Sequence record: PX104378.1 | Source: a phage | Direction: 5' to 3' (one strand) | DNA length: 64,000 nucleotides | In this document: one piece after another, positions 28,175 through 28,786 of the stretch | Position numbering within the stretch: position 1 is the stretch's first letter | Layout of the letters: every line of letters starts with the position of its first letter | Program-made: the position numbers and the translations under genes | Notes under the pieces: generated by a model | Databases searched by the model: none | Told to the model about the DNA's origin: nothing | The model's input: only the letters and a program-made list of their open reading frames with translations

Positions 28175-28341
28175 TTACATTTAGGGCAATGCGGTTCTTT
28201 AATATAATACCCGTCTGTCTTTGGAACACTAACAGGAGCGGTTTTTATATTGTATTCAGTGAAACAACGAAAACAAGTTACGTTTTCCACAGACTGACGT
28301 TTCACCCAATCACCGGAATATAGATCATTTTTATTTGTCAT
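28147..28341 (-). CDS. small zinc-ribbon protein (~64 aa)
   Basis: CFRCF..CPKCKC; internal ATG chosen to limit overlap with upstream gene. Confidence 0.4.
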   Translation of the reverse strand: MTNKNDLYSGDWVKRQSVENVTCFRCFTEYNIKTAPVSVPKTDGYYIKEPHCPKCKCRLYWSHL

Positions 28342-28786
28342 ATTCCACCACCACAATGTTAATGTCTGGAGTAGCAATATTAATGATCTCTTCTACACAT
28401 TCCCACTCAAGGCCACCGATACCGCAACCGATTTTAGGAATATAGAAAGGCTGTATAGCACCTTCAAAAACATCATTGATAGTCTCAAATCCTTTCAGGA
28501 TAGCACCATATTCAGCATTTGGACCCGGTCGGAATTGGGTATAGAGATTCAACCCGCACCAGTTATAACCATTAACTTGATGCGTCCAGACACTAAACCC
28601 ACCCAGCTTTTCTACCTTACCGCGAGAAGTTTGCTTGTCAATTTCTAACGCTTGCGGGAACTCTTTCGCGATCTTTGCAGCAATACCAGCGCCCATAGTA
28701 TGAAAACAATTACAACCATGAATTAAATGACCGTTTCCTTGTTTAAACAGGGCGATGAGATCGCCCTTTACAGTATCAATAATCAT
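28331..28786 (-). CDS. macro-domain protein, TARG1/OARD1/DarG-like (ADP-ribose processing)
   Basis: VKGDLIA..HLIHGCNCFHTMGAGIAAKIAKEF and PKIGCGIGGLEWECVEEII parallel the TARG1 signature (VKGDLFA..AHCISEDCRMGAGIA.. and PRIGCGLDRLQWENV); RBS GAGAGGTTTATATT. Confidence 0.75.
   Translation of the reverse strand: MIIDTVKGDLIALFKQGNGHLIHGCNCFHTMGAGIAAKIAKEFPQALEIDKQTSRGKVEKLGGFSVWTHQVNGYNWCGLNLYTQFRPGPNAEYGAILKGFETINDVFEGAIQPFYIPKIGCGIGGLEWECVEEIINIATPDINIVVVEYDK

What the first reader, a model, noticed from the sequence alone, without database searches (positions are those of the whole stretch)
28331..28786. TARG1/DarG-like macro-domain protein next to Cys-rich small proteins
The 151-aa product shows the two signature blocks of TARG1/OARD1-type macro domains (VKGDLIA...HGCNCFHTMGAGIAAKI and PKIGCGIGGLEWECVEEII). 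This is the macro-domain class used by the DarG antitoxin to remove ADP-ribose from DNA modified by DarT, and by TARG1 to reverse protein Glu/Asp ADP-ribosylation. In a phage it could counter ADP-ribosylation-based host defence such as DarTG, or tune the phage's own ADP-ribosyltransferases. Two adjacent Cys-rich zinc-ribbon ORFs (27932-28341) may be partners.
Basis: partly seen in the sequence, partly recalled or inferred. Interest (0 to 1): 0.65.

Follow-up and report, generated by a model that had tools for sequence, protein, structure and literature searches.

The report
Phage Tk.4/AdfM macrodomain, anti-DarTG2 type
This is the RB49-type copy of the T4 gene tk.4 (recently renamed adfM), a small ADP-ribose-removing macrodomain enzyme that in T4 protects the phage from the bacterial DarTG2 DNA-modifying defence; it is a real but already known and very common phage gene.

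Summary
A 151-aa ORF on the minus strand (28331-28786) encodes a confident macrodomain: Pfam Macro is above threshold, the AlphaFold model has pLDDT 96.7, and the best structural matches are TARG1, DarG and Poa1p. The window is a Krischvirus (RB49-like, 97-98% nt identity). The gene is RB49 tk.4, annotated with an A1pp/macro motif for about 20 years, and sits in the same position as T4 tk.4 (tk, small ORFs, tk.4, vs, vs.1, regB; 44% aa identity). A 2025 preprint showed that T4 tk.4 is the only T4 gene needed to resist DarTG2 and renamed it adfM. One refinement: the catalytic residues of TARG1 (K84/D125) and DarG (K80) are absent. The family has a near-invariant Gln (Q84), as in Streptomyces SCO6735, where that Gln is essential for removing ADP-ribose from thymidine in DNA. 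The two Cys-rich ORFs are real Pfam "phage zinc binding" proteins, but they are lineage-specific neighbours. T4 lacks them in this interval, and nearly all non-T4-like relatives lack them nearby. Verdict: already known; low to moderate interest.

The parts
28331..28786 (-). tk.4 / adfM-type gene: a 151-aa stand-alone macrodomain. Key codons are H23, N26 (28711-28709), D50, N80, Y82, T83, Q84 (28537-28535), G120 and G122.
   Evidence: Pfam Macro scores above the gathering cut-off and PHROG 335 scores E 1.6e-61. The AF2 model has pLDDT 96.7 and pTM 0.91. Foldseek top matches are TARG1, Poa1p and DarG. The gene is 97-99% identical to RB49-like tk.4 and 44% identical over its full length to T4 Tk.4.
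28795..28800 (-). Shine-Dalgarno sequence GAGAGG, 8 nt upstream of the tk.4 ATG and immediately after the vs stop codon (28804-28802).
   Evidence: Read directly from the sequence.
28147..28341 (-). Neighbouring 64-aa Cys-rich ORF (CxxC...CxxCxC), Pfam Phage_zn_bind_2. Its start overlaps the tk.4 stop by 11 nt. It is listed as context only and is not shown to be functionally linked.
   Evidence: Pfam PF23903 scores E 1.8e-23. It occurs in 234 phage records against 2,737 for the macrodomain. It is absent from the T4 tk-vs interval. It lies near the macrodomain in only 5 of 80 IMG/VR loci.
27932..28174 (-). Neighbouring 80-aa Cys/His-rich ORF, Pfam Phage_zn_bind. It is annotated 'tk.3' in JS98, but T4's own tk.3 is unrelated. 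It is listed as context only.
   Evidence: Pfam PF23895 scores E 9e-34. It occurs in 788 phage records. T4 tk.1-tk.3 show no similarity to it. It lies near the macrodomain in 7 of 80 IMG/VR loci, all T4-like.

Best explanation
The gene is the Krischvirus ortholog of T4 tk.4/adfM. It encodes a stand-alone macrodomain that is most likely made early in infection. It most likely acts as an ADP-ribosyl glycohydrolase that removes the ADP-ribose placed on thymidines of single-stranded phage DNA by the host toxin DarT2 (the DarTG2 defence). That would let phage replication proceed, so the protein would behave as an orphan antitoxin carried by the phage.

What is shown here: the macrodomain fold, membership of the TARG1/DarG class, orthology and synteny with T4 tk.4, and conservation of the ADP-ribose-binding loops and of N26 and Q84.

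What is taken from the literature: T4 tk.4 is required for resistance to DarTG2. A Gln at the catalytic Lys position supports hydrolysis of thymidine-ADP-ribose on DNA in SCO6735.

What is inferred: this 44%-identical ortholog has the same target. Its chemistry would be the SCO6735-type route, in which the Gln positions the substrate and water carries out the hydrolysis. It would not use the Lys-based route of TARG1 and DarG.
For: - Fold and class. Pfam Macro is above threshold. The AF2 model has pLDDT 96.7. Foldseek matches TARG1 (E 9e-11), T. aquaticus DarG (TM 0.80) and Mtb DarG. The PADLOC DarG model scores E 9.8e-14 and NCBIfam antitoxin_DarG scores E 1.5e-12, both over the macro part only.
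- Orthology. The window is 97-98% identical to RB49-like phages, where this gene is tk.4. The gene order tk, small ORFs, tk.4, vs, vs.1, regB matches T4. Identity to T4 Tk.4 is 44% over 150 residues, E 5e-44, with the shared motif NLYTQF(R/Q)PGPN-EY.
- Function of the ortholog. T4 tk.4 was the only significant transposon-screen hit on a DarTG2 host, and a clean knockout sensitises T4 (10.1101/2025.11.20.689424). T4 lacking adfA and adfN stays DarTG2-resistant, which had predicted such a factor (PMC11825919).
- Active site. Q84 aligns with TARG1 K84, DarG K80 and SCO6735 Q85. Q is present in 70 of 71 family members and in 77 of 80 independent IMG/VR relatives. SCO6735 residues H24, N27, G126 and G128 correspond to H23, N26, G120 and G122 here. 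In SCO6735, Q85A abolishes and N27S nearly abolishes dT-ADPr DNA hydrolysis, and the protein acts as a DarT antitoxin in vivo (PMC9411070).
- Context. Close family members are fused to NADAR, the guanine-ADPr DNA hydrolase domain of DarG1/AdfN (P0171, P0208, P0257). In non-T4-like viral contigs the gene often sits beside DnaB-like and SNF2-type helicases and an AAA_24 ATPase.
Against: - No experiment exists on this protein or on any Krischvirus. The T4 evidence is genetic only, and no biochemistry has been published for a Tk.4-type (Gln) phage macrodomain. The biochemically tested phage AdfM (PhiKZ gp104) belongs to a different, Lys-type DarG-like lineage: 132.9 bits on the PADLOC DarG model against 49.5 for this protein.
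- At 44% identity, substrate range could differ from T4.
- The SCO6735 DNA-positioning lysines K34 and K89 and its longer mobile loop are not conserved here; position 33 is Ala.
- The family is far more widespread than a single defence system would seem to demand: 2,737 phage records, and by one survey 41% of myoviruses carry a macrodomain (PMC9503650). Broader or additional substrates are therefore plausible.
Confidence: 0.72

Rival explanations
1. It is a housekeeping processor of soluble ADP-ribose derivatives. Candidates are the ADP-ribose-1''-phosphate phosphatase activity of Poa1p (the origin of the database label 'phosphatase'), O-acetyl-ADP-ribose deacetylation, or degradation of ADP-ribose-derived immune signals such as Thoeris-type cyclic ADPR isomers.
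For: PHROG 335 and GenBank label the family 'phosphatase', 'A1pp' or 'Poa1p-like'. Poa1p structures are among the top Foldseek matches, with E 3e-9. A comparative survey argued that phage Macro and NADAR domains mostly target soluble ADPr derivatives from host immunity or RNA repair (PMC9503650). Pfam ThsA_Macro weakly matches a fused family member.
Against: The Poa1p match is structurally poorer (TM 0.70, rmsd 4.7 A) than those to TARG1 and DarG. The T4 ortholog has a specific DarTG2 phenotype. No KptA/Tpt1-type or 2H-type RNA-repair gene was seen among the recurrent neighbours. The 'phosphatase' label is a transferred domain name, not a tested activity.
Confidence: 0.12
2. It reverses ADP-ribosylation of proteins or RNA. 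The source could be the phage's own transferases (Alt/ModA/ModB-like) or host ARTs other than DarT2. The substrates could be uracil-ADPr on RNA or Glu/Asp-linked protein ADPr.
For: TARG1-class macrodomains, including SCO6735, also remove protein-linked ADPr and uracil-linked ADPr from RNA (PMC9411070; PMC13036486). RB49 carries a diverged putative alt gene (PMC1524935). The great breadth of the family suggests more than one selective pressure.
Against: From established knowledge, T4 Alt, ModA and ModB modify arginine, and that linkage is cleaved by ARH-type enzymes rather than macrodomains. No ART gene lies near tk.4 in the window or in the RB49 region that corresponds to it. No ART appeared among the recurrent neighbours.
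Confidence: 0.1
3. It acts mainly without catalysis, by binding ADP-ribosylated DNA or by binding and inhibiting DarT2 directly (a stoichiometric antitoxin mimic).
For: Catalytically dead SCO6735 Q85A, DarG K80A and TARG1 K84A still inhibit DarT in vitro (PMC9411070). The canonical catalytic Lys is missing here.
Against: The protein lacks the C-terminal DarT-binding domain of DarG: it is only 151 aa and scores 47 bits against the NCBIfam DarG cut-off of 250. The residues needed for hydrolysis in SCO6735 (N, Q, G-x-G) are under strict conservation, which argues for an enzyme.
Confidence: 0.05

Closest known systems
T4 Tk.4 = AdfM (anti-DarT factor, macrodomain), bioRxiv 10.1101/2025.11.20.689424
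   Same: It occupies the same position in a syntenic gene block (tk ... tk.4, vs, vs.1, regB). It is 44% identical over the full length and of similar size (151 vs 155 aa). It shares H23, N26, D50, the N-x-Y-T-Q motif and the G-x-G loop.
   Different: It comes from a different genus (Krischvirus vs Tequatrovirus). The small ORFs between tk and tk.4 are unrelated to T4 tk.1-tk.3. The anti-DarTG2 phenotype has been shown only for the T4 protein.
Streptomyces coelicolor SCO6735 (PDB 5e3b), a thymidine-ADPr DNA hydrolase with a Gln active site
   Same: It has Gln at the position of the TARG1/DarG catalytic Lys (Q84 vs Q85). The His, Asn and Gly-x-Gly residues are conserved. It is a stand-alone macrodomain with no DarT-binding domain.
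   Different: The relationship is distant (E 2.6e-6). SCO6735's DNA-positioning K34 and K89 and its 5-residue-longer mobile loop are absent. The phage family has its own invariant D50 and Y82-T83.
DarG antitoxin macrodomain (DarTG2; PDB 5m3i, 5m31, 7omu) and PhiKZ gp104 AdfM
   Same: The fold is the same (TM 0.74-0.80). It is the best PDB sequence hit and the only PADLOC hit. The proposed substrate, dT-ADPr on ssDNA, is the same.
   Different: There is no catalytic Lys, no C-terminal DarT-binding domain and no adjacent darT. It scores 49.5 bits on the PADLOC DarG model, against 132.9 for PhiKZ gp104 and 67.4 for human TARG1. It is therefore not a recent DarG derivative.
Human TARG1/OARD1 (PDB 4j5r)
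   Same: It is the top structural match (E 9e-11, 28-29% identity). Both share the VKGDL N-terminal strand, the MGAGIA loop and the P-x-IGCG loop.
   Different: Neither residue of the K84/D125 catalytic dyad is present; the window protein has Q84 and G124.
Bacteroides BT1257 (PDB 2fg1/2afc), an uncharacterised macrodomain
   Same: It is the best profile-to-PDB hit (E 1.5e-15). It also has N-x-x-x-Q at the catalytic position.
   Different: It is a bacterial protein of unknown function, so it adds no mechanistic information.

Membership tests
Macro domain superfamily (Pfam PF01661) | HMM match above the curated gathering score | tested here: met
   28.2 bits against a cut-off of 22, E 2e-6, covering profile positions 1-118 of 118.
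Macro domain superfamily (Pfam PF01661) | Three-layer alpha/beta/alpha macro fold with the two glycine-rich ADP-ribose-binding loops | tested here: met
   The AF2 model has pLDDT 96.7 and pTM 0.91. The top 50 Foldseek PDB matches are macrodomains, apart from four engineered serine-hydrolase entries (OSH55 variants), with TM up to 0.84. The loops M31-G32-A33-G34 and G120-C-G122-I-G-G are invariant or nearly so.
T4 Tk.4 / AdfM orthologous group | Full-length sequence similarity and conserved genomic position between tk and vs | tested here: met
   44% identity over 150 aa, E 5e-44. The gene order is identical in RB49 and T4. tk.4 was reported as conserved in 6 of 6 T4-like genomes (PMC1524935).
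T4 Tk.4 / AdfM orthologous group | Confers resistance to DarTG2 | not testable with these tools
   Shown only for T4, by transposon screen and clean knockout.
DarG antitoxin (DarTG2 type II TA system) | Catalytic lysine (K80 in T. aquaticus DarG) | tested here: not met
   Gln84 occupies that column in HMMER and MAFFT alignments. It is Q in 70 of 71 and 77 of 80 relatives.
DarG antitoxin (DarTG2 type II TA system) | C-terminal DarT-binding domain and a full-length equivalog score | tested here: not met
   The protein is 151 aa. The match covers only positions 2-141 of the 338-position NCBIfam model, at 47.4 bits against a cut-off of 250. On PADLOC DarG it covers positions 3-141 of 329.
DarG antitoxin (DarTG2 type II TA system) | Encoded next to a darT toxin gene | tested here: not met
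   The neighbours are vs and vs.1 upstream, and two Zn-ribbon ORFs, a membrane ORF and tk downstream. None of the downstream small ORFs gave a PADLOC hit.
TARG1/OARD1 | Lys84/Asp125 catalytic dyad | tested here: not met
   The profile alignment to 4j5r puts Q84 opposite K84 and G124 opposite D125.
SCO6735-type (Gln) thymidine-ADPr hydrolases | Gln at the catalytic position, held by the conserved Asn, plus His24 and Gly126/Gly128 | tested here: met
   Q84, N26, H23, G120 and G122 align with Q85, N27, H24, G126 and G128. The functional importance of these residues comes from PMC9411070.
SCO6735-type (Gln) thymidine-ADPr hydrolases | DNA-positioning Lys34 and Lys89 and an extended mobile loop | tested here: not met
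   Ala33 lies at the K34 position. The loop after Q84 (FRPGPNAEY) is about 5 residues shorter than in SCO6735 and carries no conserved basic residue; position 86 is variable.
Poa1p-type ADP-ribose-1''-phosphate phosphatase | Close structural or sequence similarity, including the residues probed in Poa1p (H23, S30, F152) | tested here: inconclusive
   The sequence match is partial (E 5.5e-5, residues 6-47 only). Foldseek gives TM 0.70 and rmsd 4.7 A. The His is conserved and the Ser aligns with T30. The C-terminal Phe region was not aligned.

The most novel reading that the evidence does not exclude
The proteins now called 'AdfM' may be two independently recruited macrodomain lineages. The PhiKZ type is a close, Lys-containing DarG derivative. 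The T4/RB49 Tk.4 type is a very large, ancient phage family (more than 1,200 50%-identity clusters) that is further from DarG than human TARG1 is. It has replaced the catalytic Lys with Gln and carries its own invariant Asp50. If so, Tk.4-type enzymes would use a distinct, SCO6735-like or new catalytic mechanism. They might also have a broader substrate range than DarT2 products alone, for example uracil-ADPr on RNA or other base-linked ADPr. That would explain their presence in a large share of myoviruses.
Probability: 0.4. Interest if true: 0.45.

Novelty: already known. Interest (0 to 1): 0.27.

Why it matters
The gene identifies a counter-defence function in this phage. It predicts that RB49-like phages, like T4, resist DarTG2-carrying E. 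coli, which is relevant to host-range prediction and phage therapy design. The only point beyond current knowledge concerns the active site. The T4-type AdfM family lacks the catalytic lysine on which DarG and TARG1 depend and instead conserves a Gln, as in SCO6735, plus an unexplained invariant Asp50. The biochemical mechanism of this very common phage enzyme has therefore not been established and may differ from the textbook DarG mechanism.

Tried and rejected
1. Zinc-ribbon ORFs as partners: rejected.
   - Homologs of the two ORFs occur in 788 and 234 phage records, against 2,737 for the macrodomain.
   - The T4 reference has no homolog of either in the searched 8-kb region (genome 56,000-64,000), which contains the tk-vs interval (blastp and tblastn). 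Even so, T4 tk.4 was the only DarTG2 hit.
   - In T4_ev151 the Zn1 homolog is two genes away from tk.4.
   - Among 80 IMG/VR loci, Zn1 lies within 5 kb in 7 and Zn2 in 5. All of these are T4-like or rV5-like. None of the roughly 59 other loci has either.
   - In rV5, tk.4 and Zn2 lie in one block but are separated by two other ORFs.
2. A conserved partner of any kind: none found. Clustering all flanking ORFs of the 80 loci gave no neighbour shared across lineages. Replication helicases and AAA_24 appeared only in subsets of 8-9 loci.
3. ADP-ribosyltransferase genes (alt/modA/modB) or a NADAR gene in the window: none is annotated in the RB49 region that corresponds to the window. RB49 is reported to have a diverged alt elsewhere in its genome.
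4. A bacterial homolog next to darT: the one chromosomal homolog examined (Pelagimonas, P0104) has no toxin neighbour.
5. Filing the protein as DarG or as TARG1: rejected, because defining features were tested and not met (see the membership tests).
7. LeRoux et al. 2022 (PMC9250638) is not held in the library.

Full report
**Observation**

A GAGAGG ribosome-binding site sits 8 nt upstream of the ATG, directly after the stop codon of the upstream gene. No competing ORF of any size lies on the other strand.

The protein matches Pfam Macro above the curated threshold (28.2 bits against 22, full-length profile coverage). It matches PHROG 335 at E 1.6e-61. The two downstream Cys-rich ORFs are also real. 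They match Pfam Phage_zn_bind (PF23895, E 9e-34) and Phage_zn_bind_2 (PF23903, E 1.8e-23).

**What the window is**

Bases 27000-30000 are 97-98% identical to about 58 RB49-like phages of the genus Krischvirus. In the RB49 RefSeq record the gene is tk.4, labelled "phosphatase; contains A1pp phosphatase motif". It lies in the order tk, three small ORFs, tk.4, vs, vs.1, regB. T4 has the same order around its own tk.4.

The window protein and T4 Tk.4 are 44% identical over their full length (E 5e-44). Their flanking tk and vs.1 genes are 52-54% identical. A 2006 comparison had already recorded tk.4 as conserved in six of six T4-like genomes, with an A1pp domain match (PMC1524935).

Homologs are very common. 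tblastn finds them in 2,737 of 50,697 phage records. A family profile finds 1,296 50%-identity clusters at E<=1e-30 among 1.84 billion representative proteins.

**Fold and class**

An AlphaFold2 model built from 71 family sequences is very confident (mean pLDDT 96.7, pTM 0.91). The best Foldseek matches to solved structures are:
- human TARG1 (4j5r, E 9e-11, TM 0.78/0.84, 28-29% identity);
- yeast Poa1p (TM 0.70);
- the T. aquaticus DarG macrodomain (5m31, TM 0.80);
- the M. tuberculosis DarG macrodomain (5m3i).

By sequence, the best single-sequence PDB hit is Mtb DarG (E 5.8e-8). With the family profile, BT1257, TARG1, SCO6735, DarG and Poa1p all score within about 10 bits of each other. The only PADLOC model hit is DarG (E 9.8e-14). 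The only NCBIfam hit is antitoxin_DarG. Both cover just the macro portion and fall far below the equivalog cut-off (47 against 250 bits).

**Function of the ortholog**

A November 2025 preprint (10.1101/2025.11.20.689424) ran a transposon-insertion screen of T4 on a DarTG2-expressing host. It found tk.4 as the single significant hit. A clean knockout sensitised T4 to DarTG2, and the gene was renamed adfM. The authors inferred that the protein removes ADP-ribose from DNA, but they did not show it. This fits an earlier finding that T4 lacking adfA and adfN remained DarTG2-resistant (PMC11825919).

A separate 2026 paper gave the same name to PhiKZ gp104. It showed in vitro removal of DarT2-placed ADP-ribose from a TNTC oligonucleotide (PMC13309987).

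**Active site**

This is where the analysis adds something. In HMMER and MAFFT alignments, TARG1 K84 and DarG K80 align with Gln84 of the window protein. TARG1 D125 aligns with Gly124. T4 Tk.4 has the same YTQF motif.

The Gln is not a quirk of this one protein. It is present in 70 of 71 family sequences and in 77 of 80 independently retrieved IMG/VR relatives, none of which has Lys.

The same substitution is found in Streptomyces SCO6735 (and in BT1257). For SCO6735 it was shown that:
- Q85A abolishes hydrolysis of thymidine-linked ADP-ribose on DNA;
- N27S nearly abolishes it;
- G128E reduces it;
- the protein protects against DarT in vivo.

The proposed mechanism is water-mediated, with the Gln positioning the distal ribose (PMC9411070). 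The window protein conserves the counterparts H23, N26, Q84, G120 and G122. It lacks SCO6735's K34 and K89 and its longer mobile loop. It also has a family-specific invariant Asp50 with no counterpart in TARG1, DarG or SCO6735.

So the canonical Lys-based chemistry is excluded, but an experimentally validated alternative chemistry fits.

On the PADLOC DarG model the scores are 132.9 bits for PhiKZ gp104, 67.4 for human TARG1, 49.5 for the window protein, 36.0 for T4 Tk.4 and 34.5 for SCO6735. The two proteins named AdfM therefore belong to different macrodomain lineages.

**Context evidence**

Three of ten multi-domain relatives among the top profile hits are fusions with NADAR, the guanine-ADP-ribose DNA hydrolase domain of DarG1/AdfN. 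Two carry DUF4326. In non-T4-like viral contigs the gene recurrently sits beside a DnaB-like helicase, an SNF2/ResIII helicase and an AAA_24 ATPase, each in 8-9 of about 60 loci. Both observations are compatible with a DNA-directed role, but they are weak evidence. A chromosomal bacterial homolog (Pelagimonas) has no toxin neighbour.

**The zinc-ribbon ORFs**

They overlap tk.4 and each other head to tail, as is usual for T4-type early genes. That is the only evidence for a link. Against a link:
- The T4 reference has no homolog of either in the 8-kb region searched, which contains the tk-vs interval. T4 tk.1-tk.3 are unrelated proteins.
- Another Tequatrovirus has the Zn1 homolog two genes away from tk.4.
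- Their homologs occur in 788 and 234 phage records, against 2,737 for the macrodomain.
- Among 80 IMG/VR loci they lie within 5 kb of the macrodomain in 7 and 5 loci. All of these are T4-like or rV5-like. None of the remaining loci has either.

The interval between tk and tk.4 is a variable cassette of small ORFs. The zinc-ribbon proteins are lineage-specific neighbours of unknown function.

**Rival explanations**

The historical "phosphatase / Poa1p-like" reading, together with the proposal that phage macrodomains target soluble ADP-ribose derivatives (PMC9503650), remains possible as an additional activity. It has less support than the DarTG2 phenotype of the ortholog.

Reversal of the phage's own Alt/Mod-type modification is unlikely. 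From established knowledge, those enzymes modify arginine, a linkage that macrodomains do not cleave. In addition, no ART gene lies nearby.

A purely binding or inhibitory role is disfavoured by the strict conservation of the catalytic-type residues.

**Verdict**

It has been annotated as a macro/A1pp protein in near-identical genomes for two decades, and its T4 ortholog now has an assigned anti-DarTG2 function. The remaining open point is mechanistic. This family uses Gln instead of the DarG/TARG1 lysine, carries an unexplained invariant Asp50, and has no published biochemistry.

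Noticed in passing
window 27646-28341 (compare T4 locus L002 4347-4926): The interval between tk and tk.4 is a variable cassette of small ORFs. The window has a 97-aa predicted membrane protein (phrog_16027) and two zinc-binding ORFs. T4 has the unrelated tk.1, tk.2 and tk.3, and T4_ev151 has yet another combination.
   Followed up: partly
residue D50 of the macrodomain (codon 28639-28637, minus strand): Asp50 is invariant in 71 of 71 family sequences and 80 of 80 IMG/VR relatives, but has no counterpart in TARG1, DarG or SCO6735 in the alignments. 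It may be a family-specific catalytic or structural residue. Its position relative to the ligand pocket could not be checked.
   Followed up: partly
proteins P0171, P0208, P0257, P0164 (relatives): Tk.4-type macrodomains occur fused to NADAR domains and to DUF4326. A Macro-NADAR fusion would combine the thymine-ADPr and guanine-ADPr DNA hydrolase types in one protein.
   Followed up: partly
locus L005 (phage rV5, 2112-3195) compared with window 28147-28786: The unrelated Vequintavirus rV5 group carries tk.4 (68% aa identity) and the Zn2 ORF (75-78%) close together. These are much more similar to the Krischvirus copies than to T4's, which suggests exchange of this block between phage families.
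   Followed up: partly
window 29152-29124 (minus strand): There is a strong sigma-70-like promoter match (TTGACA, 17-nt spacer, TATGAT, with an extended -10 TG; 11 of 12). It lies just inside the 5' end of vs, upstream of tk.4. There is also a terminator-like hairpin at 28837-28823, but the number of such hairpins in the region is no more than chance would give.
   Followed up: no
window 28802-29161 (minus strand), vs: The vs homolog (valyl-tRNA synthetase modifier) is only 27% identical to T4 vs and begins with a signal-peptide-like hydrophobic N-terminus. The same preprint reports T4 vs as the gene most depleted in minimal medium.
   Followed up: no
GenBank records MG065644, MG065646, MG065659, MG065674: Records labelled 'Campylobacter phage' carry sequences nearly identical to E. 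coli rV5-like phages for both tk.4 and the Zn2 ORF. They are probably mislabelled or contaminated entries.
   Followed up: no
RB49 locus L004 9326-9790 (would fall near window 39000-39500): The RB49 homolog of T4 57B is annotated 'RNA ligase'. According to the HIDEN-SEQ preprint, T4 57B is Acb1, the anti-CBASS nuclease. The window probably carries a second known counter-defence gene under an outdated label.
   Followed up: no
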